Shown: positions 35,609-53,865, counted from the stretch's first letter. The stretch: 64,000 nucleotides of DNA from Pseudooceanicola sp. (GCF_029213205.1 NZ_JARGNH010000013.1:13558-77557); one strand, 5' to 3'. The notes: generated by a model not told the origin, from the sequence alone. Made by a program: numbers and translations.

Positions 35609-35614
35609 ATCGAC

Positions 35615-36427: not shown

Positions 36428-37663
36428 GTGGACAAACCGAACCCCAAAAGTTCGAGCTTCGAAGGTTATGCGCGCCGCCGTTTTCGGATGGCCGGTTCTG
36501 CGCTTCTCGAAGGCGGACACCCCTGGTTTGCGCATACGGATACGATTGCCGATGCGTCGAATAAATTGGCGGGCGGATACGTCAGCTTTGCGCATTACGA
36601 TTACCTTGGCCTGCTCAAGGATCCGCGGATGACCGCCGCCGCCAAGGCGGCGATCGACGAATTCGGATCCGGCGCCGGGGCGTCGCGGCTGGTTGGTGGC
36701 GAACGCACCGCGCACCGCAAATTCGAAGACGACATGGCCGAGTTTCTGGGCGTTGGCGGGGTGCTGGCGCTGATCTCGGGCTATCTGACCAACATGTCGA
36801 TCATCAGCCATTTCATGGGTGCGCGCGATCTGGTCATCACCGATGACCTTGCGCATAATTCCATCGTGATGGGCGCCAAGGCTGGCAAGTTCAGCCATAT
36901 CAAATTCCGTCACAACGACCTCGATCATCTGGAGCATATCCTGACGACGGAACGGTCGAAATACGCCCGCGTTCTCATCGCGGCAGAGGGACTTTATTCG
37001 ATGGACGGCGACCTGGCCGACCTGCCTCGGCTGGTCGAGATCAAGGACCGTCACGACGCCTGGCTGCTGCTGGACGAGGCGCATTCCTATGGCGTTCTGG
37101 GCGACGCTGGCCGCGGCCTGTGCGAACGCTGCGGCGTCGATCCCGAACGGGTCGAATTGCAGATCGGCACCCTGTCGAAAAGCTTTGCCTCTTCGGGCGG
37201 TTTCATCGCGGCTTCGAAGGTGGTGATCGACTGGCTGCGGTTCACGCTGCCCTGTTTCGTCTATTCGGTGGGCCTGTCGCCCGCCACGCTGGCCACCGCG
37301 CAGACCGCATTGGACATTCTCAAGGCCGAGCCTGAGCGGGTGCGCGCCCTGCATCGCAACAGCCAGATGTTTCTGAGCAAGGCCCGCGCGGCGGGTCTGG
37401 ACACCCACACCGCGGTGGGCGAAGCGGTGATCCCGGTTCTGTTCCAGACGCAGGAGCAGACGCTTGCCATCTCGCAAATCCTGCTGGAGCAGGGGATCTA
37501 TGCGCCGCCCATCATCCATGTCGGCGTTCCGAAGGACCTGCCGCGCATTCGGTTCTTCATTTCCGCCGGCCATACAGAGGCCGACATCGACCGCGTGGTC
37601 ACGGCATTGGCGCAAGCCGCTGAAATGACCGCCGACCTCGTGGGCAAAGCTGTCGGAACATAA
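36428..37663 (+). CDS. PLP-dependent alpha-oxoamine synthase (serine palmitoyltransferase/BioF family; RkpG/WcbT-like subgroup)
   Basis: YDYLGL, GAGASRLVGG, HNSI, FRHND, EGLYSMDGD, DEAHSYG, GTLSK (PLP Lys), RIRFFI. GTG start at 36428 after GGAGG. The context has no biotin genes. Confidence 0.9.
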   Translation: MDKPNPKSSSFEGYARRRFRMAGSALLEGGHPWFAHTDTIADASNKLAGGYVSFAHYDYLGLLKDPRMTAAAKAAIDEFGSGAGASRLVGGERTAHRKFEDDMAEFLGVGGVLALISGYLTNMSIISHFMGARDLVITDDLAHNSIVMGAKAGKFSHIKFRHNDLDHLEHILTTERSKYARVLIAAEGLYSMDGDLADLPRLVEIKDRHDAWLLLDEAHSYGVLGDAGRGLCERCGVDPERVELQIGTLSKSFASSGGFIAASKVVIDWLRFTLPCFVYSVGLSPATLATAQTALDILKAEPERVRALHRNSQMFLSKARAAGLDTHTAVGEAVIPVLFQTQEQTLAISQILLEQGIYAPPIIHVGVPKDLPRIRFFISAGHTEADIDRVVTALAQAAEMTADLVGKAVGT

Positions 37664-37667
37664 CTCC

Positions 37668-38297
37668 ATGGCACAGATCCAACCTGTAACCCCGGCCGTG
37701 GTCAGGGGAACCATAGCGCTTCTTTTCGCGTTTGTGACGGCTGTTTTCACCCTCGCCGCCCCGGCGGCGCAGGCGGCGCCCAAGCTGAGCCTGCAATCGC
37801 GGCAGGTGACGGCGGCGATGCCGGTGTTCCGCAGCGAGTTCCCGCGGCCCAAGGACGGCGGCCAGGTGTTCTTTATCCAGCGCTCGCCGAATTCCAACAC
37901 GGTGGTCTATGCCGCGCGGGTGACGGGCGGTCAGCTGGACGCCAAATCGCCGGTCTCGGCCTATTGGCGGCGGTACAACACCGATGGCGCGGCCAAGGGG
38001 CTGAGCGGCATGGAACGCCGCCTGGCCTATGGCGTTTCGGCAAGTTCCAACGGCGACGGCACCTATGACGTCAGTTTCAAGGCGCTGCCGACGGTAAAAC
38101 CAATTTTGCGGGTAGAAAAAGGGCGCCCTGCGCTGTTTACCCGCATGGGAGATGAGGAGGCGCGTATGATTTACGCCTACCTCGATGTCGACGACGGCGG
38201 GCTTTTCCCGCGTGTCACCGGTCTAAAGCTGGTGGGGCGGCTCGCGTCGGGCAAATACGTGACTGAAACATATCGGGTTACGGGCGGAGAGCTCTGA
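37668..38297 (+). CDS. Exported DUF4833-like protein
   Basis: Signal peptide ending AQA; FFIQRSPNSNTVVY..., AYWRRY...G...LSGMERRLAYG matches the DUF4833 pattern as I recall it. Confidence 0.7.
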   Translation: MAQIQPVTPAVVRGTIALLFAFVTAVFTLAAPAAQAAPKLSLQSRQVTAAMPVFRSEFPRPKDGGQVFFIQRSPNSNTVVYAARVTGGQLDAKSPVSAYWRRYNTDGAAKGLSGMERRLAYGVSASSNGDGTYDVSFKALPTVKPILRVEKGRPALFTRMGDEEARMIYAYLDVDDGGLFPRVTGLKLVGRLASGKYVTETYRVTGGEL

Positions 38298-38299
38298 GA

Positions 38300-39412
38300 A
38301 TGACAATTGAAAAGAAAAACCCAATCCGGGTGGCTATTGCCGGGGTAGGGAACTGTGCCAGTTCACTCGTGCAGGGGGTGTCCTACTGCAAGCAGATGGG
38401 TGACAAGGCCATCGGGGTCAGCTTCCCCGACCTTGGCGGCTATGCGCCGTCGGACATCGAATTTGTGGCGGCGTTTGATATCGACGCGCGCAAGGTCAAT
38501 CGCCCGCTGGGCGAGGCGATCATGGCCGCGCCGAACTGCACCGCGACCTTTTGCGATGACGTAAGCGAGCATAAGGCCATGGTGCGCCGTGGTCCGGACC
38601 TGGACGGGTTCACCGCGTTCATGCGCAACCAGAACCCGGAGCGGGCCTTTCAGGGGTCGCCGGAACCGGCGCTGACCCAGGCCGAAGTGACCCAGGTGCT
38701 GAAGGATTCGAACGCCGAAGTCCTGATCATCTTCCTGCCGGTCGGCTCCATCGAGGCGGTCGAGTTCTATGTGCAATGTGCGCTGGACGCGGGCGTGTCG
38801 ATCGTCAACGGCATCCCGGTGTTCATCGTTTCCAACCCGGTCTGGGCGAAGAAATTCGAAGATGCCGGCATTCCGATCCTGGGCGACGATTTCAAGGCGC
38901 AGTTCGGGGCCACGATCATGCACCGCACGGTGGCGGCCTTGGCCGACATGCGCGGCGTTCAGATCGACCGGACCTATCAGTTGAACGTCGGCGGCAACAC
39001 CGACTTCCTCAACATGATGGACGGTGACCGGCTGGCAATGAAGCGCGAGTCGAAAACCGAAGCGGTGCAAGAGGCGATGGATGCCCGGTTGGCTGGCGAC
39101 GACATTCGTGTCGGCCCTTCGGATTATGTGCCATGGCTGAACGACCGCAAGGTCGCCTATATCCGCCTTGAGGGTCGCCTGTTCGGCGGTGTCGCAACCA
39201 ATGTCGAAATGCGGCTCGAGGTCGAGGACAGTCCGAATGCGGCGGCCGAGGCGCTGGCGGCGATCCGCTGTGCCAAGATCGCCCGCGAACGCGGGATGGC
39301 CGGTCCGGTCAAGGCGGCTTCGGCCTTTATCTTCAAGCATCCGCCGGAACAGATGGCCGATGAAGAGGCCTATCGGCAGATGGTCGCCTTTGCGGAAGGG
39401 ACCACCGGATAA
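38300..39412 (+). CDS. ino1: Myo-inositol-1-phosphate synthase (actinobacterial/archaeal type)
   Basis: GVGNCASSLVQG, GDDFKAQFGAT, YQLNVGGNTDFLNM, SKTEAVQ, GPSDYVPWLNDRK, LEVEDSPNAA. Confidence 0.95.
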   Translation: MTIEKKNPIRVAIAGVGNCASSLVQGVSYCKQMGDKAIGVSFPDLGGYAPSDIEFVAAFDIDARKVNRPLGEAIMAAPNCTATFCDDVSEHKAMVRRGPDLDGFTAFMRNQNPERAFQGSPEPALTQAEVTQVLKDSNAEVLIIFLPVGSIEAVEFYVQCALDAGVSIVNGIPVFIVSNPVWAKKFEDAGIPILGDDFKAQFGATIMHRTVAALADMRGVQIDRTYQLNVGGNTDFLNMMDGDRLAMKRESKTEAVQEAMDARLAGDDIRVGPSDYVPWLNDRKVAYIRLEGRLFGGVATNVEMRLEVEDSPNAAAEALAAIRCAKIARERGMAGPVKAASAFIFKHPPEQMADEEAYRQMVAFAEGTTG

Positions 39413-40230
39413 TGGCGCGGCCCGGGCAGCACGCCCCGGCCTGGATTTCAGGCGGGTCGAGCGGCATCGGGCTTGAGGTCGCGCGGCAACTCGCGGCCAA
39501 GGGTCGGCCAGTGGTGCTGATCGCGCGCAACGCTGAACGCTTGGCGGTCGCGGCGGGCTCGCTCCGCCGCGACGTGCCCGGCGCCGGGGTTGATTGCATC
39601 GCTTGCGATGTCACTGATCACGCCGCTGTCATGGCGGCTGTGGCCGAGGCGTTTGCGGCGCGCGGCGCCCCCGGCATTGTGGTGGCCAGCGCCGGTCTGG
39701 CCGAGCCGGGCCGGTTCCTCGATCAGGAGATCGGATCGCATCACGCCCAACTTTCGGTCAATTACACCGGCACTCTGAACCTGCTGCATGCGGCGGCCCC
39801 GCTGATGCGCGACGCCGGTGGCGGGCAGATGGCACTGATCTCTTCCGGCGCGGCGTTCTTTGGTATTTATGGGTATGGTGCGTATGCACCGTCGAAATTC
39901 GCGGTGCGGGCCCTGGCCGAGGTTTTGCGTGTCGAACTGGCGCCGCATGATATTTCGGTCACCCTCTGCTATCCGCCCGACACCGACACGCCGCAGCTGG
40001 CCGCCGAATCGCTGACCAAGCCCGAGGCGACCAAGATCATCAGCGAAGGCGGCGGGCTCTGGCAGCCCGGCGACGTCGCCCGGTTGACCATCCGTGGGAT
40101 GGAGCGTGGCCGCTTTGCGGTCACCCCGGGCTGGCAGATGACCGCGCTCTACTGGATCGCGCCGCTGATCTGGCCGATCATGCGCTGGCACCAGGGCCGG
40201 GTGGTTCGCAAAGTCGGTGCCGAAAAATGA
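39412..40230 (+). CDS. Short-chain dehydrogenase, 3-ketodihydrosphingosine reductase (KDSR/Tsc10)-like
   Basis: GGSSGIG, catalytic YAPSK, FAVRALAEVLRVEL, the KDSR-like YPPDTDTP, and a C-terminal amphipathic segment. TAATG overlap with ino1. Confidence 0.8.
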   Translation: MARPGQHAPAWISGGSSGIGLEVARQLAAKGRPVVLIARNAERLAVAAGSLRRDVPGAGVDCIACDVTDHAAVMAAVAEAFAARGAPGIVVASAGLAEPGRFLDQEIGSHHAQLSVNYTGTLNLLHAAAPLMRDAGGGQMALISSGAAFFGIYGYGAYAPSKFAVRALAEVLRVELAPHDISVTLCYPPDTDTPQLAAESLTKPEATKIISEGGGLWQPGDVARLTIRGMERGRFAVTPGWQMTALYWIAPLIWPIMRWHQGRVVRKVGAEK

Positions 40231-41114
40231 TCGCGGCCCAGTCGACCCTTGGCGTTGTCGCTGCGGCGCTGGCGCTGTTGTCGCTTGGCTATGCCATCGT
40301 TGGCGCGATGAGCATTGTGCCCGCCACCAGCAGCGGTGCCCGAAAAATCTGGCCAATTCTGAATATCGAGGCCGCAATTGTCGGGTCGGTCTGCACAGTG
40401 TTCGCCTTTGCCCCGGTCCTGATGCCGCTGGCCTGCCTGGGGCTGATCCTGCGGGTGGTCTGGGAGGCGGCAAGCGTGCGGTTTCGCCCCGGCGGTGCCG
40501 GGCTGGCGATTGTCTGGGCGACAGCGGCGGGGCTTGGCTTTCTGCTGCTGATCCTGCTGGTGCCCTGGGGCTGGGCCGTGGCGCTGCTGGCGCTGGCCTG
40601 GCTGGCGGCGATGGTCATCCGCCTGACCCGGCCCGAGGCAGCTGCGGCCGATCTGTTCAGCTTTCCGGTGTTGCCGATCCTGGCCTTTGGCGTCAGCTGC
40701 ACCGGCGGCAACGAGGCGCTGTTTCTGGCCGCCTGGATCGGGATCGAGACCTTTGACAGCTACGCGCTGCTGGCGGGCAAGGTGTTTGGCCGCCACAAGG
40801 CGTTTCCGGCTCTCAGCCCGAACAAGACGATCGAGGGGCTGGCAGGCGGCGCGATCATGCTGGTGCTCACTGCGGGTGGCGCGGCGTTGCTGCTGCCCTC
40901 GGTCGCTTCTGGTCAGGCCATCGCCTTTGCCCTGCTGATCGGCGTGTTCACGGTGATCGGCGATCTGACCGCCTCGCATCTGAAACGGCGGGCCGGGGTC
41001 AAGGATTACCCGCAGCTGGTGCCGCATCAGGGCGGGCTATTCGACATCTTTGATTCCTGGATCGCGACCGGTGGCGCCCTGGCTGTGGTGCTGGCCGTCG
41101 CCGGTCTGGCATAG
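40227..41114 (+). CDS. Phosphatidate cytidylyltransferase (CdsA/CTP_transf_1)-like membrane protein
   Basis: DSYALLAGKVFGRH, LSPNKTIEG, GDLTASHLKRRAGVKD, HQGGLFDIFDS (variant of GHGG.LDR.DS). ATGA overlap with the SDR. Confidence 0.88.
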   Translation: MIAAQSTLGVVAAALALLSLGYAIVGAMSIVPATSSGARKIWPILNIEAAIVGSVCTVFAFAPVLMPLACLGLILRVVWEAASVRFRPGGAGLAIVWATAAGLGFLLLILLVPWGWAVALLALAWLAAMVIRLTRPEAAAADLFSFPVLPILAFGVSCTGGNEALFLAAWIGIETFDSYALLAGKVFGRHKAFPALSPNKTIEGLAGGAIMLVLTAGGAALLLPSVASGQAIAFALLIGVFTVIGDLTASHLKRRAGVKDYPQLVPHQGGLFDIFDSWIATGGALAVVLAVAGLA

Positions 41115-41124
41115 GAGCGGCCGG

Positions 41125-42255
41125 ATGCGTCCCTACCTGCGCCTTGTCCTGGGTCCGACCCTCACCGTCACGCTGTCGATTCTGGCGCTGGTCGAGATCG
41201 TCTTTCTGGCCGAGGAATTCACCGGCCTGCTGGAAACCATCGTCAGCACCGGCGGATCGGCGTTTGACCTGATCCGGCTGCTGTCCTGGAAGATCCCCGA
41301 AATCCTGGATCTGGCCCTGCCAATCGCGATCTTGGTCGGGGTTCATACCGCAGTCGGCCGGTCGCGCCGCGACGGCGAATTGGTGGTGCTCTCGGCGGCG
41401 GGGGCGCCGTCCTGGGGGCTGGTGTCCGGGTTCCTGCTGGTTGGACTGCTCGGGGCCTGCCTCAGCTTTGCGATCAGCGGCTTCATCGCCCCGGCCTCGA
41501 GCTTTGCCCAGCGTCTGGCGCTGCATGAAATGACCGTTTCGCATATTGCGGAGCAGATTTCGGCACCGGGTGAAAGCGGCACCACGCTGGTCACCAATGG
41601 CACCGATTTCGTCGCCACCGGCACCCCGGACGGGCCGCCATCGCTGATGGTGCGCCGTCCGCCGGGATCGAAACCCTGGCGCTATGCCTTTGCCGGGGAT
41701 TGGGAGGTCTTGGGCCCCGATGTCGAGGGCAACGGCACCTTCCGGTTGGGTCAGGTTTCAGCCTTTGGCGATTTGGAGCGGCTGGATGGCAAAACCGCCG
41801 AGGCGCAGCTGAACCGGATGGCAGCGGGAAGCGTCAAGGTCGGTTTCTCGATGGAGGATGTGCTGCCGGTGCTCGACAATGTGCCGCGCCGTCAGGAGCG
41901 GCCGGTGCTGCCGCTGACATTGGGGATCTTCAGCTTTGCTGCCGTCAACACCGCGATTGACCCGCAGCGTCTGGCGCTGACCATTGGGCGTTCGATGCTG
42001 GTGCCGGCGGCGGTGTTGCTGGCGTTGATGGCCGTCTGTGGCGGCACCGTGCCCGGGGTCCGGGCGGCGGCGTTTCCGATGGCGCTGATCGGGCTGGTGC
42101 TGACCGATCTGGTCGCCCGTGCCTGGCTCGGTGGGTTCAGCACGCCGAGGGCGCTGACTCTGGCCACCCTGTTCGTGGCGGTGGCGGCGGTCGCGGTGCC
42201 GATCTCGGCCTTGCGCCTTGCGGGTGAAGCGCTGATCCGGCCGGGGCGCGGATAA
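41125..42255 (+). CDS. LptF/LptG-family permease (divergent paralog)
   Basis: TM1, LPIAILVG...GRSRRDGELVVLSAAG, periplasmic beta-rich region, three C-terminal TMs. AGGAG RBS before ATG 41125. Confidence 0.82.
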   Translation: MRPYLRLVLGPTLTVTLSILALVEIVFLAEEFTGLLETIVSTGGSAFDLIRLLSWKIPEILDLALPIAILVGVHTAVGRSRRDGELVVLSAAGAPSWGLVSGFLLVGLLGACLSFAISGFIAPASSFAQRLALHEMTVSHIAEQISAPGESGTTLVTNGTDFVATGTPDGPPSLMVRRPPGSKPWRYAFAGDWEVLGPDVEGNGTFRLGQVSAFGDLERLDGKTAEAQLNRMAAGSVKVGFSMEDVLPVLDNVPRRQERPVLPLTLGIFSFAAVNTAIDPQRLALTIGRSMLVPAAVLLALMAVCGGTVPGVRAAAFPMALIGLVLTDLVARAWLGGFSTPRALTLATLFVAVAAVAVPISALRLAGEALIRPGRG

Positions 42256-43382
42256 TGGCGTTGCGCAGCCTCACCGGGCGGGCGATGCGGCTGGCATTGC
42301 GCGAACATTTCACCGCCGCGCTGTCGGTGCTGACCGCGTTGATCTTTGTCGCGCTGATGATCGATTTCGCCGACAGCTTTGACAGCCTCCGCGCCGCCGC
42401 CGAGGGCAAGTCTCTGTCGCTGGTGCTGGGCAAATACACCCTCTATCGGCTGACCGATATCGTGTCGCGGTTGCTGCCGGTGGCCACCTTGCTGGGCGCA
42501 TTCCTGGCCGAAGTCCGGCGCCGGGCGTTGCTGGAAACCGTTATCCTGGCGGCCTCGGGTGTGTCGGTTGCGCCGACCCTGGTGGCGCTGGGCCTGCTTG
42601 GCGGGCTGAGCGGTGCCCTGCAATGGAAGCTGGAGCGTGACTGGCGCCCGGCGGCGGTGTTCGCGCAGGTCGATTTGGGCGCTGGAGGCTATGCCGATCG
42701 CTATGCGCGCGGCTTGACCAGCGATCAGCATTGGTTCGTGCAGGACGATGCCGCGATTGTCGGCCGGGTGCTGGTCGGGTCCCGCCCTGAGCTGCGCGAG
42801 GCCAGCTATTTCATCGGTCTGCAGGGGCGCGGCTTTTCCCAGCTGGTCCGGGCCGAACGGGTGTATCCGCTGGGTGACGGCGATTGGCGTTTCGAAAACG
42901 CCGAGATCTGGGAGACGACAGCCAAAGGCAGCCTCGTCGGCCGCCCGGTCGCGGTGCTGGATCTGCCGTTGTGGATTGTGCCCGACCGGCTGGAATTTCT
43001 GCGCCCGTCACCGTTCTACCTGCCGCAGGATGTGCTGAACGCCCGGGCCACAGCGGCGCCGGAGGATCCCAAGATCGCCGCGACCCAATGGCGGCGCTAT
43101 ACTGCCTGGTTATTGCCGGGGTTGTTTGCCTTTCTCGGCGCCAGCCTGGCGATGACCGGGTTCCGGGGCCGGGTGACACGGATGCCGATCCTGATCGGCA
43201 TGGCCTTTGGCGGCTATCTGGTGACCCTGTCGCTCAAGGTGTTCTTTGCCCTGGGCGAACTCGGGGCGCTGTCGGCCCCGATCGCGGCGCTGGCGCCGCT
43301 GGGCCTGGCGCTGGGTCTCGGCGCCGGGCTGCAATGGTTGCTGAACAGAGAGGCGCGTGGCCGCCGTTTGCCGCTTGGATAA
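42255..43382 (+). CDS. LptF/LptG-family permease (divergent paralog)
   Basis: LLPVATLLGA...ETVILAASGVS, periplasmic region (A....GDGDWRFEN), three C-terminal TMs. TAATG overlap with the previous gene. Confidence 0.82.
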   Translation: MALRSLTGRAMRLALREHFTAALSVLTALIFVALMIDFADSFDSLRAAAEGKSLSLVLGKYTLYRLTDIVSRLLPVATLLGAFLAEVRRRALLETVILAASGVSVAPTLVALGLLGGLSGALQWKLERDWRPAAVFAQVDLGAGGYADRYARGLTSDQHWFVQDDAAIVGRVLVGSRPELREASYFIGLQGRGFSQLVRAERVYPLGDGDWRFENAEIWETTAKGSLVGRPVAVLDLPLWIVPDRLEFLRPSPFYLPQDVLNARATAAPEDPKIAATQWRRYTAWLLPGLFAFLGASLAMTGFRGRVTRMPILIGMAFGGYLVTLSLKVFFALGELGALSAPIAALAPLGLALGLGAGLQWLLNREARGRRLPLG

Positions 43383-43398: not shown

Positions 43399-44157
43399 TC
43401 AGATCGCCTGGGCGCGTCCGGGTGCCCGCGGCAGCCCGGCGCTGGCGAGGGGCCAGACCCGCATATAGGCATCCGCCAGCATGGTTTCGTCGTCAACCTC
43501 GGCCCAGGCCAGATCGTCGATCAGCGGGCAGGTATAGCTGTGACCGGCGGCATGCGCGACCAGCCCGCTTTCGTAATCGGCCTTGATATCGGCGCCGATC
43601 AGCTTTTGCGCGGTGGCGCGAAAGGCGTCCAGGTCGGTCGCGGCGAGGGCGGAGATCCCGACCAACTCGCCACGATGCGCCTCGTCCCGGTGATCGGCGC
43701 GCTTCGACATGTCGATCAACTGGCTGTCGGCTTTGGTCCAGACATAGACCTCGTCCCCGGCGCTGGTTGGCCCGGACAGGACCAGCCCCGAAGTGCCGCG
43801 CAGCATCGGATCGAGCGCCCGGGGCTCATACATGATGTCAGATTCCAGGATCACCACCGGGCCGCTCAGCCCCGCCAGCCCGCATCCCAGCGACCACAGG
43901 CTGCCCGAGCGGTGGTAATCGGCGTTGTGCACCAGCTCGACCCCCGGCGTCGCCGAAAATTCCTGCCGGTAGGCTTCGGCCAGATGGCCGGTGACGATCC
44001 GCACCTTGGAAATGCCGCGATCGGCAAGGTGCAGCACCGAGGCGCGCACCAGCGGCATCCCGTCCAGCGCGATCATCCCCTTGGGTGTCAGCCGCCCACG
44101 GGCGCCCATCCGCACCCCCAAACCGGCCGCCACGATCACTGCTGTGCACTCGGTCAT
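43399..44157 (-). CDS. NTP transferase, phosphocholine/inositol-1-phosphate cytidylyltransferase (LicC/IPCT)-like
   Basis: AVIVAAGLGVRMG...PKGM, NADY..SGSLWSL, LESDIMY, GELVGIS, WAEVDD. ATG at 44157 after GGAG. Confidence 0.88.
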   Translation of the reverse strand: MTECTAVIVAAGLGVRMGARGRLTPKGMIALDGMPLVRASVLHLADRGISKVRIVTGHLAEAYRQEFSATPGVELVHNADYHRSGSLWSLGCGLAGLSGPVVILESDIMYEPRALDPMLRGTSGLVLSGPTSAGDEVYVWTKADSQLIDMSKRADHRDEAHRGELVGISALAATDLDAFRATAQKLIGADIKADYESGLVAHAAGHSYTCPLIDDLAWAEVDDETMLADAYMRVWPLASAGLPRAPGRAQAI

Positions 44158-44267
44158 AGTCAACTTCTCCGGCGCGCTGAATCTGCAGCGCGCATGTTAC
44201 CAATGTTCCGTAAATTTGTTACAGCACCGGAATGCCTGCGCCAAGCTAAGAACGGAGTAACGATCGA

Positions 44268-44981
44268 GTGACTGAATCTCAAACCCCAAGTGTCGGTGCC
44301 TTGGTGCGCAATTATCTGCACAGTCCGAAACATGATGAGGAACTGCATGGCAATTGGGTGATGGCGCTGCTGCATCGTTGGCCGGGATTTCTCCTGAGCG
44401 CGCTGTTCTTGCGCGCCGGGATCAGTGCCAATGCGGTGACGCTGACCGGTGCGACGTTTGCCCTGATATTGCCGCTCATGGCCTGGCTGCTGCCGGTACC
44501 TCTGGCCGCCTGGACAGTGCTGGTGCTGGGCAGTTTGGTTATCACGCTGGATTGCTGCGATGGTGATATCGCGCGTTGGACCGGCAGCGCATCAAGGCAT
44601 GGCGCCCAACTGGACTTCGTCGTTGATATGGCGCTGTGGGGTCTCTTGTACGGATCTCTCGGGTTGCTCGCTGACCGGGCGGGTGTCGGTGACGGGGGCG
44701 CTGTCGTGACAGGCGGCTGGACCGCGCTGGCGCTGGGGTCGGCCTGGTTGCGGTTGCTGGCACGGGTGATCAACGATGCCGCTGGCGGCGGCCAGACCGT
44801 GGGTCAAGGCCCCTGGACCGTGACTACCGCCCTGACCGCCTTCGTTGCCGGGTTGTCGGGCGCCTTGCCGTTTCTGGCACCGCTGGTGATCTGGCACCCG
44901 GCGCTGATCTGGCTGTTGGCGCTTTATGCCATTGCCGATGTTGTCAACGCGCTGTGGCGGATGATGGTGCGGGCCGGTTGA
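44268..44981 (+). CDS. CDP-alcohol phosphatidyltransferase family protein (copy 1)
   Basis: ISANAVT and the family motif DCCDGDIARWTGSASRHGAQLDFVVD. Confidence 0.9.
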   Translation: MTESQTPSVGALVRNYLHSPKHDEELHGNWVMALLHRWPGFLLSALFLRAGISANAVTLTGATFALILPLMAWLLPVPLAAWTVLVLGSLVITLDCCDGDIARWTGSASRHGAQLDFVVDMALWGLLYGSLGLLADRAGVGDGGAVVTGGWTALALGSAWLRLLARVINDAAGGGQTVGQGPWTVTTALTAFVAGLSGALPFLAPLVIWHPALIWLLALYAIADVVNALWRMMVRAG

Positions 44982-46093
44982 TGCGGATTGTGCATGTCAG
45001 CCCCTATCCGATGGCCCGGCCCGGCGGGGTGCAGAGCAATATCCGGGATCTCTGCGCCTGGTTGGAGCGCCAGGGCCATGAGGTGCGGATTCTGGCCCCG
45101 GATGCGCAAGATGACGCCGCCACCCGCCGCATCGCCCTCGGCCATGCGCGCGAGGTGACGCTGCATGGCACCGAGTTCGAGTTCAGCTATGCCGGGCCAC
45201 TGGCGCTGTCACGCGCGGCGCGCGGGTTGCGCGACTGGGGGGCGGAACTGGTGCATCTGCACACCCCATGGACCCCGATGATGCCCTGGCAGCTGTGGCG
45301 CAAGCTGCGCCTGCCCAGCGTCGCCACCTTTCACGCCACCTTGCCTGATATCGACCCGGCAACCGCCAAGCCGGGGCTGGAGGACCGCTTCATCGCCCGC
45401 GCGGCGCGCTATTACCACCGCCGGTTGGCGGCGTTGATCGTGCCGTCTTCGGCGCCCCAGGCACAATGGGCGCGGCTGGGGGTGACGCCGTTGCCGCAGA
45501 TCCTGCCGCCGACCATCAACCTGGCCGATTGGCGCGCCGCCGACCCTGGCACAGCCCGGCGCGCGGGGCCGTTCCGGGTGATCTATCTGGGCCGGTTCGA
45601 GGCGCGCAAAGGTGTCGATGTGCTGCTCAGCGCCTGGGCGCAACGCCCGGCAGCGTTGCGCGACGCTGAACTGGTCCTGGCCGGGCGCGGTGCCCTGCCG
45701 GGCCCGCTGCCCGAAGGGGCGCGGCTGGTGTCCGACCCGGACCGGGCCGCTGCGATTCGGCTGGTGGCCGAGGCCGATGTTTCGGTGGCCCCGGCGGGCT
45801 GGGGCGAAAGCTTTGGCCTGGTGCTGATCGAGGCGATGGCGGCGGGCACGGTGCCGGTGGCGGCGGCCAATGCGGGCTATGCCACGGTGATGACCGGGGC
45901 CGGACGCGATCTGCTGTTCGAACCGGGCGATGCCGCCGGGCTGGCGGCGCGGCTGGCGGAGTTGGCAACCGGGCCCGCGCGGCTGGCCAGGCTGGCCGAC
46001 TGGGGCCGTGCCCATGCGCTCGACTACGATGTCAGCCGGGTCGGACCGGCCTATCTGCGGGTTTACGAGGCGGCTCTGGAGACGCGTTCATAG
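44981..46093 (+). CDS. GT4 glycosyltransferase, PimA-like
   Basis: SPYPMARPGGVQSNI (cf. the PimA PGGVQSH loop), HLHTP, ATFH, YLGRFEARKG, ESFGLVLIEAMAAG. TGATG overlap with the previous gene. Confidence 0.88.
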   Translation: MRIVHVSPYPMARPGGVQSNIRDLCAWLERQGHEVRILAPDAQDDAATRRIALGHAREVTLHGTEFEFSYAGPLALSRAARGLRDWGAELVHLHTPWTPMMPWQLWRKLRLPSVATFHATLPDIDPATAKPGLEDRFIARAARYYHRRLAALIVPSSAPQAQWARLGVTPLPQILPPTINLADWRAADPGTARRAGPFRVIYLGRFEARKGVDVLLSAWAQRPAALRDAELVLAGRGALPGPLPEGARLVSDPDRAAAIRLVAEADVSVAPAGWGESFGLVLIEAMAAGTVPVAAANAGYATVMTGAGRDLLFEPGDAAGLAARLAELATGPARLARLADWGRAHALDYDVSRVGPAYLRVYEAALETRS

Positions 46094-47046
46094 GGCGAGG
46101 GATTGGGATGCTGGCGCTCAAGCCAGCGGCGCATCATCGCCACCACCCGCGGGTTCGGACGTTCACCGAAATTGTCGTTCAGCGTCGTGGTGATCGGATT
46201 GGCGCGCGCGTTCCATTGCAGCTTGGCCCAGGTCCAGGGCAGCAGGTTGTCGACACCGATATAGCCCTCCATCTGCCGGGCCTCAGCGGCAGTGGCGGCG
46301 CGGGCCCAGCCTTCGGCCACCGCGACCTGCGGATAGAGGAACTCCGGCGGCACATCCTGCGGGCTGCGAAACCGGCTCTGCCGGGTGGTGACAATCTCAG
46401 CCGCGAAACGATCGGTCATCGCGGCGAAATTGACCTTGTCGATCAGCTTCGGTCCATGGATCACATGGAACCGCTCGCGGGCGCCATAGCTGCGGTCAAG
46501 GGCGGCGGCGGCCCGCGCCAAAGCATGGTTCCAGGCGCTGTCCTTCTGTGTCAATTGTGCCCCGGTCCGCACCCGGCGAGTTGAAAAATGTGCCACGCTG
46601 CGGCCATCCGGATCGCGCAGCCCGGCCAGCAGGCCGGGGCGGTTCACCAGCATGTCATCCTCGAAATAAAGAAACCGCTCGCTGAGCCCGGGCAACAGAT
46701 GCAGATGGCTGACAATCGCAAAGGAATTGAAGGTCGGCAGGATCGCCGGATCCATCACCTGGTCGTGGTGATGCACGGTGATCCCCGGTGCTTCGACGTT
46801 CAGCCAGGCTGGCACCTGCGGGCGGCAGGACAGGATATGCACATGGCCCAGTTCCGGCAAATGCCGCAACGAACGCAGCGCATAGCGCAGCGTGTCCAGA
46901 TTGTCGCGGGTGCGGTTGGCGCTGCTGTCGGCGGGCAGATCGGCATAGTGCGACTGGGTCTCACGATACCCCTCAAAGCGGTCGTCGACCCAGGTGTAGA
47001 CCACGTCGATCTTGCCGGTTTCCGTGGGTCTGCCGGTTGCTGTCAT
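46063..47046 (-). CDS. Stealth-family hexose-1-phosphate transferase
   Basis: CR1 IDVVYTWVD; CR2 LRYALRSL...PTFNSFAI..LHLLPGLSERFLYFEDD; CR3 HGPKLIDK...RFRSPQD; CR4 LNDNF. Confidence 0.9.
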   Translation of the reverse strand: MTATGRPTETGKIDVVYTWVDDRFEGYRETQSHYADLPADSSANRTRDNLDTLRYALRSLRHLPELGHVHILSCRPQVPAWLNVEAPGITVHHHDQVMDPAILPTFNSFAIVSHLHLLPGLSERFLYFEDDMLVNRPGLLAGLRDPDGRSVAHFSTRRVRTGAQLTQKDSAWNHALARAAAALDRSYGARERFHVIHGPKLIDKVNFAAMTDRFAAEIVTTRQSRFRSPQDVPPEFLYPQVAVAEGWARAATAAEARQMEGYIGVDNLLPWTWAKLQWNARANPITTTLNDNFGERPNPRVVAMMRRWLERQHPNPSPYERVSRAAS

Positions 47047-47228
47047 ATTGCCCTCTGCCGCTGTCCTGGGGATCGCACCAGACGCCCTGATAGCCGAGCG
47101 TGAAGGCCGCGTCGAGGCGGACCAATTGCCACCCCGTGGCCGCCCCATTGCCGGTTGCTGCATTTCGCCTGCCATGGCACAACCTCCGGGCCTGAAACAG
47201 CAGGTGTAGGGACAGAAAGAACGCCGGA

Positions 47229-48776
47229 ATGAGCCAGGGAGAGCTGATCATCGCCGCCGATTTCGGCACGTCGGGCGTCAAGCTGGGTGTGGTGGGTGAA
47301 GGCATGTCGCTGTTGGCCCGCCGGGTCGAACACTATCCAATCCAGCTCGCCTCGGGCGGGGTGGCCGAACAGCGCCCCGAAGATTGGTGGGCGGCGTTGG
47401 CCCGTGGTCTGTCGGCGCTTGAGGCCGAGCTTCCCGGCACCCTGTCACAGGCCGGTGCGCTGGTGTTCTCGGCGCAGATGTGTGGCGTCACCTGTGTCGA
47501 TGCCGACGGTGTGCCGCTGCGACCCTGCATCATCTGGCAGGACACGCGCGCCGGCGATATTGCCCGCAGGCTGGTCGGTGGTTTCCCGGAGGCGTTGGGA
47601 TACAACCTGAACCGCCTGGCGCGCTGGATCCGGATTGCCAATGGCGCCCCGGCCAAGAACGGCATGGATCCAATCGCCAAGATGCATTTCCTGATGCGCA
47701 ACGAGCCGGAGATCTGGGCGAAGACCCACCGCACCCTGGATGTGAAGGATTGGCTGATCCACCGCGCCACCGGCCGGTTTGTCACCACCGCCGACAGCGC
47801 CAATGTGACCTGGCTGATGGACACCCGCCCGGGCCGTGAAGGCTGGTCCAAGGCTCTGTCAAAGATGACGGGCATGCCGCTGGACAAGTTGCCCGAGATT
47901 GTTGATGGCAGCGATGTGGTCGGGGTTCTGACCCCGCGTGCCGCCGCCGAGCTGGGCCTGCCCGCCGATCTGCCGGTGGTCGCCGGCGGCGGCGATGTCA
48001 CCGCGACGGCGCTGGGATCAGGCGCGGTGGCCGACGGGGCGCTGCATCTCTGCATCTCGACTTCGGCTTGGGTCAGCGGCTTTTTTCCGCGCCGGATTCT
48101 CAGTGTGCCCAGCTCTTTCGCGACGGTGGCCAGCAGTGCGGGCAATCGCCCGCTGCTGATCGCCACCCAGGAAAGCGCCGGATCGGCTCTGGAATGGGTG
48201 GCGCGGCTGATGGGCTATGGCGCGCAGCCGGATCTGGTCGCCGCCTTTGGCGATCCTGGCGACTGGCGCGAGGATGATCCGTTTCTGATCCCGTGGTTTG
48301 CGGGCGAGAGGGTGCCGGTCGACAATGACACGCTGCGCGGGGTGATTCACGGGCTGTCGATTGACCATGACCGCAACGCGGTCGCGCGCGCCGCCATCGA
48401 AGGCGTCGCGCTGAACCTGCGCTGGGCCCATGAGGCGGTGGCCAAGAAGCCGGGAGTCAAGCTTGACGGGCCCTTGCCGCTGGTCGGCGGCGGCGCCACC
48501 AACCCGGTGCTGGCGCAATGCGTTGCCGACGCGCTGAACCGTGAGGTGACCACCGGCGAAAGCCAGTTCGCCGGGGTGCTGGGCACCGCCGCGCTGGCCG
48601 CCCCGGCGATGGGCTGGGATCCGGATGTCTGGCATGCGGCGGCGCGGCTGTCCGACCGGGTGCAGGCGCGGTATCTGCCGTTGCCGGACCGTCACGAGAT
48701 GATCGAACGTCGCTATGCCCGTCTGCGCAAGCTGCGGAAAACCATGGTGAAAACCTTTCCTGGGAGCGCGGCATGA
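47229..48776 (+). CDS. FGGY-family carbohydrate kinase (xylulokinase-like)
   Basis: ADFGTSGVK, EQRPEDWW, IIWQDTRA, GGGDVTA, FAGERVP, AAIEGVA, VGGGATN. Confidence 0.9.
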   Translation: MSQGELIIAADFGTSGVKLGVVGEGMSLLARRVEHYPIQLASGGVAEQRPEDWWAALARGLSALEAELPGTLSQAGALVFSAQMCGVTCVDADGVPLRPCIIWQDTRAGDIARRLVGGFPEALGYNLNRLARWIRIANGAPAKNGMDPIAKMHFLMRNEPEIWAKTHRTLDVKDWLIHRATGRFVTTADSANVTWLMDTRPGREGWSKALSKMTGMPLDKLPEIVDGSDVVGVLTPRAAAELGLPADLPVVAGGGDVTATALGSGAVADGALHLCISTSAWVSGFFPRRILSVPSSFATVASSAGNRPLLIATQESAGSALEWVARLMGYGAQPDLVAAFGDPGDWREDDPFLIPWFAGERVPVDNDTLRGVIHGLSIDHDRNAVARAAIEGVALNLRWAHEAVAKKPGVKLDGPLPLVGGGATNPVLAQCVADALNREVTTGESQFAGVLGTAALAAPAMGWDPDVWHAAARLSDRVQARYLPLPDRHEMIERRYARLRKLRKTMVKTFPGSAA

Positions 48777-49399
48777 TTGATGGGTTGATCAAACATATTC
48801 TTGATCCGTTGTGGGAAAAGGCCTCGACTCCGCTGGTGCGGGCCGGTTTGACGCCGAACCAGGTGACGTTGACCGGGCTGGCGTTGATCATCGCCGGATC
48901 CGGGCTTTACCTCTGGCACCGCCTGGATCTGGTGTTCGGACTGTGGCTGGCGGTGTCCTATGCCTTTGACGCGCTCGACGGTGCGGTGGCGCGACGGCGC
49001 GACATGCGATCAAAGGCGGGCGGCTATCTGGATGCGATGGTCGACCGCTATCAGGAATTGATCGTTCTGGGGGCGATTGCCTGGGTGCATGATCTGTGGC
49101 CGCTGGCGCTGTTGACCTTCGCCGGGTCGGTCATCACCTCTTATGCCAAGGCGCGCACCGCGCTTGAGGCGGATGTTTCGAACGATGGCTGGCCGGAATT
49201 GTTCGAACGGCTTGAGCGGATCATCTACACCTGCGTGCTGCTGGTCGCCGCCGGGCTGGTGCCGGAGGGCTGGGTTGCCTCCGTGATGGTCTGGGGCATG
49301 GCGCTGTTCGCGGCGCTGACCAACCTGACCGCCCTGCAACGTGGGGTCAGGGCGTTTGGGTTGCTGGCGCAGATCGACCGTGAAGGTGGCGCAGAATAA
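48773..49399 (+). CDS. CDP-alcohol phosphatidyltransferase (copy 2), phosphatidylinositol-phosphate synthase-like
   Basis: LTPNQVT, DALDGAVARRRDMRSKAGGYLDAMVDRYQE, SYAKART and FERLER, as seen in actinobacterial/archaeal PIP/AIP synthases. ATGA overlap with the kinase. Confidence 0.88.
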   Translation: MIDGLIKHILDPLWEKASTPLVRAGLTPNQVTLTGLALIIAGSGLYLWHRLDLVFGLWLAVSYAFDALDGAVARRRDMRSKAGGYLDAMVDRYQELIVLGAIAWVHDLWPLALLTFAGSVITSYAKARTALEADVSNDGWPELFERLERIIYTCVLLVAAGLVPEGWVASVMVWGMALFAALTNLTALQRGVRAFGLLAQIDREGGAE

Positions 49400-50171
49400 T
49401 CCGCGCGAAATCCACCGCATGCAAAAGCGCCAGGTTCAGCACCAGGATCAGCACCACCACCTCGGTCAGCACATAGGCCTGATACAGCGACGGCGTGTGG
49501 TATGAGGTGTCTTTCAGGATGAACAAGGCCAGATAGGTCAGGGTCGCGATGATCGCAGCCACACAGGCGACGATCCGCAGTCGCGCCGCCGTCGGTTCGA
49601 TCAGCCCGCGCTGCCGCATGCTCTGATCGTGACGGATCAGGGTCAGCACCGCGAGATTGGTCATCAGCCCGACGATCTGCGCCAAGGCGGCAGAGATGAA
49701 CAACATGTAACTGCCGATCATATGGATGCTGTTGGCATGGCCAATCCGGAACACCGACAGCAGGATCAGCCCGAGGGCGATCGGCGGTTGCAGCACGATA
49801 TAGAAGTTCGACCAGATTTGCAGCCGTCTGCGATCGGCGACATCGGCGGCCGGGGTGGCATGGACGGAGCGGGTATAGAGCATCGCGACGATGATCCCGA
49901 GGACGAACAGCTCGACCGCGACCAGGGCGATCCAGAGCGAAAACGGGTCGCCGATGCTCGGCTCGGAAATCGCGCGGCTGATGGTTGGCGGCTTGCGCAG
50001 CGATTCTTCGGGAAACAGGGCGATCCATTCGATTCGGGCGCGAATGATCCAATAGGCAACGATGGGCGAGGCCGACAGGCTGAGCGCCAGGCCAATCGCC
50101 GCCAAGGGCCAGGCCATATGTGCCGGTTTCGGCGAACTGGCCTCGGCCAGGGTTGAATGATTTGCCTGCAT
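49347..50171 (-). CDS. Six-TM membrane protein resembling the Frag1/DRAM/Sfk1 (PGAP2/Cwh43 N-terminal) family
   Basis: Order of features: TM1, PTISRAISEP..F, TM2, GLILLSVF...IHMIGSYMLF, RLRIV, TEVVV, terminal DF. This follows the DRAM/PGAP2 pattern by eye only. Start at 50171 or 50117. Confidence 0.6.
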   Translation of the reverse strand: MQANHSTLAEASSPKPAHMAWPLAAIGLALSLSASPIVAYWIIRARIEWIALFPEESLRKPPTISRAISEPSIGDPFSLWIALVAVELFVLGIIVAMLYTRSVHATPAADVADRRRLQIWSNFYIVLQPPIALGLILLSVFRIGHANSIHMIGSYMLFISAALAQIVGLMTNLAVLTLIRHDQSMRQRGLIEPTAARLRIVACVAAIIATLTYLALFILKDTSYHTPSLYQAYVLTEVVVLILVLNLALLHAVDFARIILRHLHGRSAPATQTP

Positions 50172-51556: not shown

Positions 51557-51677
51557 GCGCCGCAGCCAGCCTCTGACTGCTTCTATTCGCCGGATGCGGG
51601 GTGTATGTAGTCGCCTCAGACGGGTCCATCAGGGCCATTCCATTCAATCCGGGCGCGGCCCGAACGATACAGGTAAC

Positions 51678-53864: not shown

Positions 53865-53865
53865 T

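What the first reader, a model, noticed from the sequence alone, without database searches (positions are those of the whole stretch)
36428..40230. SPT-like enzyme in one operon with a eukaryote-type KDSR-like reductase, and no recognisable bacterial ceramide synthase
Seen: the oxoamine synthase carries HNSI, AEPERV and RIRFFI features that I associate with the RkpG/WcbT capsule-locus subgroup rather than BioF. The SDR carries YAPSK and YPPDTDTP as in KDSR/Tsc10. Established: the characterised Caulobacter-type pathway N-acylates 3-ketosphinganine first (bCerS) and reduces afterwards (CerR), while eukaryotes reduce first with KDSR. No bCerS-, CerR-, ACP- or acyl-CoA ligase-like gene is visible in the window. 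Inference: this organism may reduce first, or make lyso-type (non-N-acylated) sphingoid lipids, or use an unrecognised acyltransferase.
Basis: partly seen in the sequence, partly recalled or inferred. Interest (0 to 1): 0.72.

Follow-up and report, generated by a model that had tools for sequence, protein, structure and literature searches.

The report
Sphingoid-base genes lacking known ceramide synthase
A marine Rhodobacteraceae bacterium carries an operon that most likely makes a sphingolipid-type long-chain base with a reductase like the one eukaryotes use, yet its genome has no known ceramide synthase, so the step that adds the second fatty chain is either new or missing.

Summary
Genes 36428-37663 (oxoamine synthase, AOS) and 39412-40230 (SDR) lie in a tightly packed operon with DUF4833, inositol-phosphate synthase, a CdsA-like gene and an LptF/LptG pair.

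- **AOS:** It is not a canonical SPT, BioF or KBL. It belongs to a separate superclade with an HNS motif that includes RkpG-type capsule enzymes.
- **Closest AOS relatives:** Those outside the roseobacters (50-57% identity, in Methylocapsa, Methylocystis and Rhizomicrobium) sit directly beside bCerS. This ties the clade to sphingolipid synthesis.
- **SDR:** Its best solved-structure sequence match is Tsc10. It is 36% identical to RkpH.
- **bCerS:** It was not found in nine window-type genomes, while controls were positive. Lag1-type CerS and CerR were tested in fewer genomes and were also not found.
- **Mutual exclusion:** Of 79 related loci, 43 carry bCerS, 8 carry this SDR, and none carries both.
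- **Desaturase:** An unlinked membrane desaturase co-occurs with the cluster in 6 of 6 cluster-bearing genomes and in 0 of 245 others.

Most likely the AOS condenses and the SDR then reduces in the cytoplasm. N-acylation is then done by an unrecognised enzyme, or does not happen. The product is probably an exported inositol-phospho lipid.

This is a new variant of bacterial sphingolipid synthesis. The scan has not found it on other DNA.

The parts
36428..37663 (+). PLP-dependent alpha-oxoamine synthase of the RkpG/HNS superclade (SPT-like)
   Evidence: Pfam PF00155. It scores below every NCBIfam cut-off: bioF 332/426, SPT models 219-285 against 500-670. Trees. Catalytic H143, D216, H219 and K251 are invariant.
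37668..38297 (+). DUF4833 protein with an N-terminal signal or anchor helix and an all-beta domain
   Evidence: PF16117 at 2.9e-23. Model pLDDT 92. No significant PDB fold match. Also present in clusters that lack AOS and SDR (L060).
38300..39412 (+). myo-inositol-phosphate synthase
   Evidence: PF01658 at 6e-32. TIGR03450 at 9e-122, 406.6 bits, below its 638-bit cut-off.
39412..40230 (+). KDSR/Tsc10/RkpH-type short-chain reductase, with no signal peptide
   Evidence: Best PDB sequence hit is Tsc10 8jat at 1.7e-24. RkpH 36% identity, 8e-52. Orthologues are named 3-dehydrosphinganine reductase. Model pLDDT 94.7.
40227..41114 (+). CdsA-like CTP_transf_1 family membrane protein
   Evidence: PF01148 at 1.3e-34. 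The SDR stop overlaps its start (ATGA). Conserved in all cluster variants.
41125..43382 (+). LptF-like and LptG-like permease pair (41125-42255, 42255-43382)
   Evidence: PF03739. LptF2/LptG2 paralogues are implicated in sphingolipid export in Caulobacter, where they are essential when sphingolipids are made (10.64898/2026.04.12.717747).
43399..44163 (-). NTP_transf_3 nucleotidyltransferase (candidate CDP-inositol or CDP-alcohol synthase)
   Evidence: PF12804. Weak IPCT/DIPPS match.
44268..44981 (+). CDP-alcohol phosphatidyltransferase 1
   Evidence: PF01066 at 3.8e-6. Present in most but not all window-type loci.
44954..46093 (+). GT4 glycosyltransferase
   Evidence: PF13439 and PF00534.
46063..47175 (-). 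Stealth-family hexose-1-phosphoryltransferase-like protein
   Evidence: Stealth CR2, CR3 and CR4.
47229..48776 (+). FGGY-family sugar kinase
   Evidence: PF00370 and PF02782. XylB-like, below cut-off.
48773..49399 (+). CDP-alcohol phosphatidyltransferase 2, PIP/AIP-synthase-like
   Evidence: NF040950 118.5 bits, NF045883 80.9 bits, both below cut-off.
49347..50171 (-). Frag1/DRAM/Sfk1 family membrane protein
   Evidence: PF10277 at 1.1e-8. Conserved in Shimia, G235, G335, L060 and L074.
51594..53345 (+). MsbA-like ABC exporter (membrane domain plus ATPase)
   Evidence: PF00005 and PF00664. Conserved at the cluster end in G235, G335, L059 and L060.

Best explanation
The AOS and the SDR are the first two enzymes of a sphingoid-base pathway. 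It is built into a modular operon that makes and exports an inositol-phospho(glyco)lipid.

Proposed steps:
1. The AOS condenses an acyl thioester with an amino acid, most likely L-serine, to give a 3-keto long-chain base.
2. The cytoplasmic SDR, probably NADPH-dependent, reduces the free 3-keto base straight away. This is the reduce-first order of eukaryotes and Bacteroides.
3. The base, or its N-acyl derivative, then receives a phospho-inositol head group. Candidate enzymes are MIPS, the CdsA-like protein plus the PIP-synthase-like transferase, and/or the NTP transferase plus the second CDP-alcohol transferase.
4. The lipid is glycosylated (GT4, Stealth).
5. It is desaturated by an unlinked desaturase that co-occurs with the cluster.
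6. It is flipped and extracted to the outer membrane by the MsbA-like ABC protein and LptF2/LptG2.

Because bCerS, CerR and Lag1-type CerS are not found, N-acylation, if it occurs, is done by an enzyme of an unrecognised family encoded outside the cluster.

Shown here: gene content, synteny, phylogeny, co-occurrence and the absences. Inferred: all substrates, the order of steps and the final product.
For: Operon packing is shown. The gene order AOS-DUF4833-MIPS-SDR-CdsA-like-LptF-LptG is syntenic across Shimia, Pseudopelagicola, Stappia and four unnamed Rhodobacteraceae genera.

The AOS lies in a 64-row clade (SH-aLRT 95). Most members of that clade sit immediately beside bCerS, for example in an AOS-bCerS operon in Methylocapsa acidiphila, Methylosinus, Methylocystis and Rhizomicrobium. 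The window type is nested among them, with outgroups L081 and L088 that carry bCerS.

For the SDR, the best PDB sequence hit is Tsc10. It shows 36% identity and a shared PPDT(D/E)TP motif with RkpH, the partner of RkpG. It has no signal peptide and has an ARN motif after strand 2.

In a 251-genome family sample, the SDR (43-58% identity) occurs in 11 genomes. All 11 have a superclade AOS. Cluster variants without a condensing enzyme also lack the SDR (L060).

bCerS was not found in 9 window-type genomes, while Methylocapsa (3.5e-112) and Rhizomicrobium (1e-138) were positive in the same run. The bCerS query was validated by its occurrence in all 19 canonical-SPT genomes of a 151-genome sample.

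Among 79 related loci, 43 have bCerS, 8 have the SDR and none has both. bCerS-type genomes have no SDR orthologue (best 1e-20).

A membrane desaturase co-occurs with the cluster in 6 of 6 cluster-bearing genomes and 0 of 245 others. It lies inside the cluster in G235 and G335.

LptF2/G2 paralogues are implicated in sphingolipid transport in Caulobacter.
Against: - No biochemical data exist.
- The AOS scores below every curated SPT model and is only 31-34% identical to canonical SPTs, so the amino-acid substrate is not established.
- Fold search does not single out Tsc10. Many SDRs match equally well.
- An orthologous SDR (48% identity) lies in a metagenomic cluster (L059) that shows KS, ACP, a MaoC dehydratase and a PlsC-type acyltransferase but no AOS within 18.5 kb. 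The SDR could therefore reduce another 3-keto substrate.
- RkpG/RkpH relatives work in capsule loci whose lipid product is unknown.
- No acyltransferase is conserved in 14 window-type loci.
- A core cluster exists without AOS and SDR (L060), so the sphingoid module is an add-on whose link to the inositol head group is inferred only from linkage.
Confidence: 0.6

Rival explanations
1. The pathway stops at a non-N-acylated (lyso-type) sphingoid base. The base is used directly, for example phosphodiester-linked to inositol or joined to a diacylglycerol-derived moiety. No ceramide synthase is needed.
For: No bCerS, Lag1-type CerS or conserved acyltransferase was found in or near the cluster or genome-wide. 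bCerS and this SDR are mutually exclusive. RkpG/RkpH relatives work in genomes not known to make ceramide.
Against: A single-chain lipid is a poor outer-membrane constituent and an unlikely LptFG cargo. The co-occurring desaturase has three His boxes and an HNEHH box. From memory, this resembles dihydroceramide desaturases, which act on N-acylated substrates. The lineage descends from bCerS-linked ancestors.
Confidence: 0.17
2. The AOS and SDR make a non-sphingolipid amino-alcohol lipid, for example from alanine or glycine (1-deoxy type). It would serve as an anchor or primer for a surface glycan, as is presumed for RkpG/RkpH in K-antigen capsule loci.
For: The AOS is 44-51% identical to capsule-locus AOSs and falls in their superclade. 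GT4 and Stealth enzymes are in the cluster.
Against: There are no kps export genes and no PKS in the cluster. The nearest AOS relatives are bCerS-linked rather than PKS-linked. DEAHS is shared with canonical SPT, whereas BioF and KBL have DDAHA.
Confidence: 0.12
3. The SDR does not act on the AOS product. It reduces another keto intermediate of the inositol-lipid pathway, such as a 3-ketoacyl chain or a keto-sugar. The reduction of the long-chain base is done elsewhere or not at all.
For: L059 has the SDR orthologue (48% identity) next to MIPS and the CdsA-like gene, together with KS, ACP and a dehydratase but no AOS in view. The fold is a generic classical SDR.
Against: SDR and superclade AOS co-occur in 11 of 11 genomes of the family sample. 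The RkpG-RkpH adjacency is conserved. L060 lacks both AOS and SDR. Only 18.5 kb of the 27-kb L059 contig was seen.
Confidence: 0.08
4. The AOS is a housekeeping BioF or KBL enzyme that happens to lie here.
For: bioF is the highest-scoring NCBIfam model (332 bits). The genome has no other BioF or KBL, because the second AOS is ALAS.
Against: The score is below the bioF cut-off of 426. bioB is not found in 5 of 5 carrier genomes, while the control rings in 11 of 14 well-known genomes. An orthologue occurs in only 4 of 250 sampled genera of the family at E<=1e-100 (5 of 251 counting G000; a sixth carrier, G290, was missed because its gene is split between contigs). The tree separates it from BioF and KBL. 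It is translationally coupled to lipid genes.
Confidence: 0.02

Closest known systems
Caulobacter-type bacterial ceramide pathway (Spt, bCerS, CerR, ACP, ACS, LptF2/G2)
   Same: An AOS starts the pathway. A dedicated LptF/LptG paralogue pair lies in the locus. The AOS clade is physically linked to bCerS in sister lineages.
   Different: The AOS belongs to a different clade (31-34% identity). There is no bCerS, CerR orthologue, dedicated ACP or acyl-AMP ligase. A cytoplasmic KDSR-type SDR replaces the periplasmic NDUFA9-like CerR. The head-group genes are for inositol, not phosphoglycerate.
Eukaryotic KDSR/Tsc10 and Bacteroides BT_0972 (3-ketosphinganine reductases)
   Same: It is a classical SDR with the S-Y-K triad and a TGxxxGxG motif. 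Tsc10 is the best PDB sequence hit. Orthologues are auto-annotated as 3-dehydrosphinganine reductase. The implied order is reduce-first.
   Different: The match to Tsc10 is modest (1.7e-24). Fold search is not specific. The gene is clustered with its AOS, unlike BT_0972 (PMC9278070). Activity is untested.
RkpG/RkpH (Sinorhizobium rkp-1) and WcbT-type capsule-locus pairs
   Same: It is the same AOS superclade (HNS and RxRFF motifs) and the same SDR type (36% identity, PPDT(D/E)TP). The two are paired in the genome.
   Different: No RkpA/WcbR-type PKS and no kps export genes are present. The cluster carries inositol-lipid and LptFG genes instead. The window AOS is closer to bCerS-linked AOSs than to PKS-linked ones.
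Bacteroides inositol-lipid clusters (BT_1522-1526 and the B. vulgatus-type alternative cluster)
   Same: MIPS, a PIP-synthase-like CDP-alcohol transferase, an NTP transferase plus CDP-alcohol transferase, and PgpA in the Stappia and L074 variants.
   Different: No AUR1-like or HAD-type IPC synthase was recognised. There is an extra CdsA-like gene, DUF4833, Frag1, LptFG, and the SPT-like and SDR genes sit inside the cluster. The host is an alphaproteobacterium.

Membership tests
Canonical bacterial serine palmitoyltransferase (NCBIfam NF047603, NF047599, NF047600) | Score above the curated equivalog cut-off | tested here: not met
   218.7/670, 274.6/500 and 284.5/640 bits. A true SPT (L011) scores 644/500.
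Canonical bacterial serine palmitoyltransferase (NCBIfam NF047603, NF047599, NF047600) | Falls inside the SPT clade in a tree | tested here: not met
   It forms a separate clade, each side at 100% support. Identity is 31-34%.
Canonical bacterial serine palmitoyltransferase (NCBIfam NF047603, NF047599, NF047600) | PLP lysine and His/Asp/His catalytic residues | tested here: met
   H143, D216, H219 and K251 are invariant in orthologues.
Canonical bacterial serine palmitoyltransferase (NCBIfam NF047603, NF047599, NF047600) | Condenses L-serine with a long-chain acyl thioester | not testable with these tools
   Needs an enzyme assay. The only indirect support is bCerS adjacency in sister lineages.
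RkpG/WcbT-type oxoamine synthase superclade | Clade membership and signature motifs (HNS, R[IL]RFF) | tested here: met
   11-row clade at 100/99 and 89-row superclade at 100. HNS is in nearly all rows, against HAS in SPT, BioF, KBL and ALAS.
RkpG/WcbT-type oxoamine synthase superclade | Adjacent RkpA/WcbR-type PKS and kps capsule export genes | tested here: not met
   None is in the window or in window-type loci.
3-ketodihydrosphingosine reductase (KDSR/Tsc10) | Classical SDR with TGxxxGxG and the Ser-Tyr-Lys triad | tested here: met
   GGSSGIG at 14-20. S145, Y158 and K162 are invariant.
3-ketodihydrosphingosine reductase (KDSR/Tsc10) | Closest characterised relative is a KDSR | tested here: met
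   Tsc10 8jat is the top of 177,635 PDB sequences (90 bits, next 77). Sources name orthologues 3-dehydrosphinganine reductase.
3-ketodihydrosphingosine reductase (KDSR/Tsc10) | Structure specifically resembles Tsc10 | tested here: inconclusive
   Foldseek returns about 2,000 SDRs at similar E-values. Tsc10 is not among the top 50.
3-ketodihydrosphingosine reductase (KDSR/Tsc10) | NADPH-dependent reduction of free 3-ketosphinganine | not testable with these tools
   Needs an assay, for example co-expression with an SPT in E. coli as in PMC9278070.
Caulobacter-type ceramide pathway | bCerS present | tested here: not met
   The profile finds nothing in G000 (best E 1.8) or in 8 other window-type genomes.
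Caulobacter-type ceramide pathway | CerR (NDUFA9-like epimerase-family reductase) present | tested here: not met
   Only generic hits near 1e-17. No independent positive control was run apart from the query's own genome.
Caulobacter-type ceramide pathway | Dedicated ACP and acyl-AMP ligase next to Spt | tested here: not met
   None is in the cluster. The best ligase hit in the genome is 2.5e-20.
Caulobacter-type ceramide pathway | LptF2/LptG2 paralogues in the locus | tested here: met
   PF03739 twice, at 41125-43382. The paper was read.
Eukaryote-type ceramide synthase (Lag1/TLC) | PF03798 domain protein in the genome | tested here: not met
   No match in 5 carrier genomes. The control rang only weakly, so sensitivity is uncertain.
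BioF (8-amino-7-oxononanoate synthase) | Score above the TIGR00858 cut-off and a biotin pathway present | tested here: not met
   332 bits against a 426 cut-off. bioB is not found in 5 of 5 carriers.

The most novel reading that the evidence does not exclude
Roseobacter-group and Stappia bacteria make N-acylated inositol-phospho-sphingolipids by a reduce-first route. Its ceramide synthase would be homologous neither to bCerS nor to Lag1/CerS, making it a third, still unidentified kind of ceramide synthase. This route would have replaced bCerS in a lineage whose ancestors used it.
Probability: 0.4. Interest if true: 0.82.

Novelty: new variant of a known kind. Interest (0 to 1): 0.7.

Why it matters
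Bacterial sphingolipid synthesis is currently described by one scheme, Spt then bCerS then CerR. Bacteroides is a partly divergent case.

This locus shows a second SPT-like family that takes two mutually exclusive routes downstream. One route goes through bCerS. The other goes through a KDSR/RkpH-type reductase with no known ceramide synthase.

That gives a concrete place to look for a missing enzyme, or for a non-acylated class of sphingoid lipid. It also suggests a function for the long-unexplained RkpG/RkpH pair of rhizobial and Burkholderia-type capsule loci. In addition, it predicts inositol-phospho-sphingolipids in the outer membrane of marine roseobacters, where none has been reported in the literature I could search.

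Several carriers are cultured strains, so the question can be tested directly.

Tried and rejected
- **BioF or KBL reading.** Rejected: the score is below cut-off, bioB is not found, the distribution is patchy and the tree separates them.
- **The second AOS of the genome (C11).** It is ALAS, at 675 bits.
- **Lag1/TLC CerS.** No hit.
- **OlsB-type N-acyltransferases (PF13444).** Most carriers have two copies, which fits the housekeeping OlsB/GlsB pair I expect in roseobacters (from memory; non-carriers were not compared). They are not cluster-specific.
- **A hidden conserved acyltransferase.** De novo clustering of all ORFs in 14 window-type loci found none. The unlabelled families that turned up appear to be antisense ORF artefacts.
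- **Homologues of the L059 PlsC-type acyltransferase, KS and ACP in the own genome.** The best hits sit next to ftsEX and lpxD and look like housekeeping genes.
- **The large PKS-like ORF on C31.** It is an NRPS hybrid, unrelated to RkpA.
- **The neighbourhood of the unlinked desaturase.** It is not conserved in G000. In G329 and G368 it is the second half of the cluster with a PhyH-like gene and no acyltransferase.
- **DUF4833 as the missing enzyme.** Unlikely: it is exported, all-beta, has no PDB fold match, and is also present where the AOS is absent.
- **Fold search for the SDR.** Not discriminating.
- **Literature.** No paper in the held library describes this cluster. One search on rkpG/wcbT returned only unrelated papers. 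The Stankeviciute 2022 paper is not held.
- **One alignment for structure prediction.** I rebuilt it without that row.

Full report
**What is at the coordinates.** The window is part of a 3.69-Mb, 95.6%-complete genome. It belongs to a Rhodobacteraceae close to Pseudooceanicola and Oceanicola sp. 22II-s10i, whose AOS orthologues are 86-88% identical.

On the + strand, between 36428 and 43382, lie seven genes:
- an alpha-oxoamine synthase (AOS, 411 aa);
- a DUF4833 protein;
- myo-inositol-phosphate synthase;
- a short-chain reductase (SDR, 272 aa);
- a CdsA-like CTP_transf_1 protein;
- an LptF-like and an LptG-like permease.

The junctions are 4 nt, 2 nt, a 1-nt overlap, an ATGA overlap and 10 nt. 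The genes are therefore almost certainly co-transcribed.

Downstream lie an NTP transferase, two CDP-alcohol phosphatidyltransferases, a GT4 glycosyltransferase, a Stealth protein, an FGGY kinase, a Frag1-family membrane protein and an MsbA-like ABC exporter. The second transferase resembles PIP or archaetidylinositol-phosphate synthase.

**The oxoamine synthase.** It scores below the curated cut-off of every NCBIfam AOS model: bioF 332/426, KBL 285/460 and the three SPT models 219-285 against 500-670. Its best PDB sequence matches are Sphingobacterium SPT (1e-61) and KBL/BioF (1e-58), which are barely separated.

It is only 31-34% identical to canonical alphaproteobacterial SPTs. It is 44% identical to S. 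meliloti RkpG and 51% identical to an AOS in an Acidisoma kps capsule locus. Other close relatives lie next to RkpA/WcbR-type PKS genes and kps export genes in Caballeronia and Microbulbifer.

A 22-row tree and a 96-row tree both place it in a superclade that is cleanly separated from canonical SPT, BioF and KBL. HNS replaces the HAS found in canonical SPT, BioF, KBL and ALAS. DEAHS is shared with canonical SPT but not with BioF or KBL.

The only other AOS in the genome is ALAS. bioB is not found in five carrier genomes. A BioF role is therefore excluded.

**The key comparative result.** A scan of one genome per GTDB species returned 80 loci. AOS relatives at 50-57% identity occur in Methylocapsa, Methylocella, Methylocystis, Methylosinus, Rhizomicrobium and Hyphomicrobium. 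In many of these loci, including Methylocapsa, Methylosinus, Methylocystis and Rhizomicrobium, the AOS lies directly beside a bCerS homologue, often as an AOS-bCerS pair 100-300 bp apart.

I had first validated the bCerS query. The 382-aa protein next to canonical SPT occurs in exactly the 19 SPT-bearing genomes of a 151-genome class sample, plus one weak hit.

In the tree, the window type (15 rows) is nested inside this bCerS-linked clade. Its nearest outgroups, L081 and L088, carry bCerS. The AOS clade is therefore tied to sphingolipid synthesis by association with the one enzyme specific to it. This is stronger evidence than sequence similarity to SPT.

**The reductase.** It is a classical SDR with no signal peptide. 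Its best match among all PDB sequences is the 3-ketodihydrosphingosine reductase Tsc10 (1.7e-24, next hit 1.5e-20). JGI and UniRef name its orthologues 3-dehydrosphinganine reductase.

It is 36% identical (8e-52) to RkpH, the gene next to RkpG. The shared features include PPDT(D/E)TP. A high-confidence model (pLDDT 94.7) matches thousands of SDRs equally well, so the fold adds nothing specific.

In a 251-genome family sample the SDR type occurs in 11 genomes. Six have the window-type cluster. One of these was missed at first because its AOS is split between two contig ends. The other five have a more distant superclade AOS, apparently of the RkpG type. A cluster variant with no condensing enzyme (L060) also has no SDR. 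The SDR therefore behaves as the ketoreductase partner of this AOS family.

**The absences.**
- A 20-sequence bCerS HMM run with no filters finds nothing in the own genome (best E 1.8).
- A bCerS profile finds nothing in four other carrier genera.
- It also finds nothing in Shimia sp. SDUM112013, Pseudopelagicola sp. nBUS_19 (complete chromosome) or Shimia sagamensis. In the same run it scores 3.5e-112 in Methylocapsa acidiphila and 1e-138 in Rhizomicrobium electricum.
- Lag1/TLC CerS is not found.
- CerR gives only generic epimerase hits near 1e-17.
- There is no dedicated ACP, acyl-AMP ligase or DAGK-type ceramide kinase.
- Conversely, bCerS-type genomes have no orthologue of the SDR (best 1e-20).
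- Among 79 usable related loci, 43 have bCerS within 10 kb, 8 have the SDR and none has both.

**Other linked genes.** In two relatives, a membrane fatty-acid-desaturase family gene with three His boxes lies between GT4 and Stealth. From memory, its HNEHH box resembles dihydroceramide desaturases.

The own genome has a 70%-identical copy on another contig (G000:C14:9003-10061). In the family sample this gene is present in all six cluster carriers and in none of the other 245 genomes. A related desaturase follows AOS-bCerS in L096.

LptF2/LptG2 paralogues are implicated in sphingolipid transport in Caulobacter, where they are essential when sphingolipids are made. No acyltransferase family is conserved across 14 window-type loci.

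**How it most likely works.** The proposed steps are:
1. The AOS makes a 3-keto long-chain base.
2. The cytoplasmic SDR reduces it at once. In Caulobacter, by contrast, bCerS acylates first and a periplasmic CerR reduces afterwards.
3. The base is then N-acylated by an unrecognised enzyme, or it is left unacylated.
4. It is given a phospho-inositol head group, glycosylated, desaturated and exported by the ABC protein and LptF2/G2.

The cluster is modular. L060 has the inositol, export and glycosyl genes without AOS and SDR. L059 has the SDR with KS, ACP, a dehydratase and a PlsC-type acyltransferase but no AOS in view. L059 is the main reason for caution about the SDR's substrate.

**Comparison with what is known, and verdict.** The system works like a sphingolipid pathway, but it is not a member of the Caulobacter-type scheme. 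A reduce-first step in bacteria is already known from Bacteroides BT_0972. Distant Spt-like clades linked to bCerS have been noted in metagenomes.

I found three things in no held paper:
- the mutually exclusive use of bCerS or a KDSR/RkpH-type SDR downstream of one AOS clade;
- the genome-wide lack of any known ceramide synthase in carriers;
- the embedding of these genes in an inositol-lipid and LptFG operon in roseobacters.

I rate this a new variant of a known kind, with interest 0.7. The product and all activities remain inferred.

Noticed in passing
L070, L073, L083, L084 and other loci (for example L073:10001-12623): Type II methanotrophs and relatives (Methylocapsa, Methylocella, Methylocystis, Methylosinus, Rhizomicrobium) carry an AOS-bCerS pair. 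Its AOS belongs to the HNS superclade, not to canonical SPT. This implies a second SPT family and possible ceramide synthesis in these bacteria. No paper in the held library mentions it.
   Followed up: partly
L126:2238-12347 (Hansschlegelia quercus): An RkpA-type PKS, an RkpG-type AOS and a bCerS homologue lie in one locus. This links capsule-type PKS/AOS systems to N-acylation by bCerS.
   Followed up: no
L060:9815-20528 (metagenome contig): A variant cluster DUF4833-MIPS-CdsA-like-LptF-LptG-GT4-FGGY-CDP-OH-Frag1-ABC lacks both AOS and SDR. The inositol-lipid and export core therefore exists on its own.
   Followed up: partly
L059:1-18561 (metagenome contig, GC 54%): A variant cluster carries the SDR orthologue, MIPS, the CdsA-like gene, PgpA, the desaturase and DUF4833. 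It also carries ACP, KS, a MaoC dehydratase and a PlsC-type acyltransferase, but shows no AOS in the 18.5 kb seen.
   Followed up: partly
window 37668-38297: DUF4833 folds with high confidence (pLDDT 92) into an all-beta domain behind an N-terminal helix. It has no significant match in the PDB. The only hints are weak FABP-like ones (E 6e-3, TM below 0.3).
   Followed up: yes
window 31963-36184: A PqiA-PqiA-PqiB-PqiC lipid-transport operon lies directly upstream of the AOS. It is not conserved next to the cluster in Shimia, Stappia or the other carriers.
   Followed up: partly
L013:5704-9603 (Stappia sp. F7233): Genes for a PEP mutase fused to a nucleotidyltransferase, a phosphonopyruvate decarboxylase-like protein and an aminotransferase lie directly upstream of the AOS. 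They look like a 2-aminoethylphosphonate pathway and hint at a phosphono head group in that organism.
   Followed up: no
L155:4500-5381 and L156:4137-4904 (G329, G368): A conserved protein lies in the second half-cluster with Frag1, CDP-OH, FGGY, Stealth and the desaturase. Its N-terminal sequence looks PhyH-like to me, but this was not scanned. It could be a lipid hydroxylase.
   Followed up: no
window 50282-51556: A 424-aa ORF with one predicted membrane helix has no Pfam match. It lies between Frag1 and the ABC exporter and is not conserved in the other clusters.
   Followed up: partly
window 53740-61610: A nitrous-oxide reductase cluster (nosR, nosZ, nosF, nosY, nosL and neighbours) follows the lipid cluster.
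   Followed up: no
G290:C16:68-679 and G290:C67:157212-157790: In one carrier genome the AOS is split between two contig ends. A stringent whole-gene search therefore missed it. This is a reminder that presence counts in draft genomes are lower bounds.
   Followed up: yes
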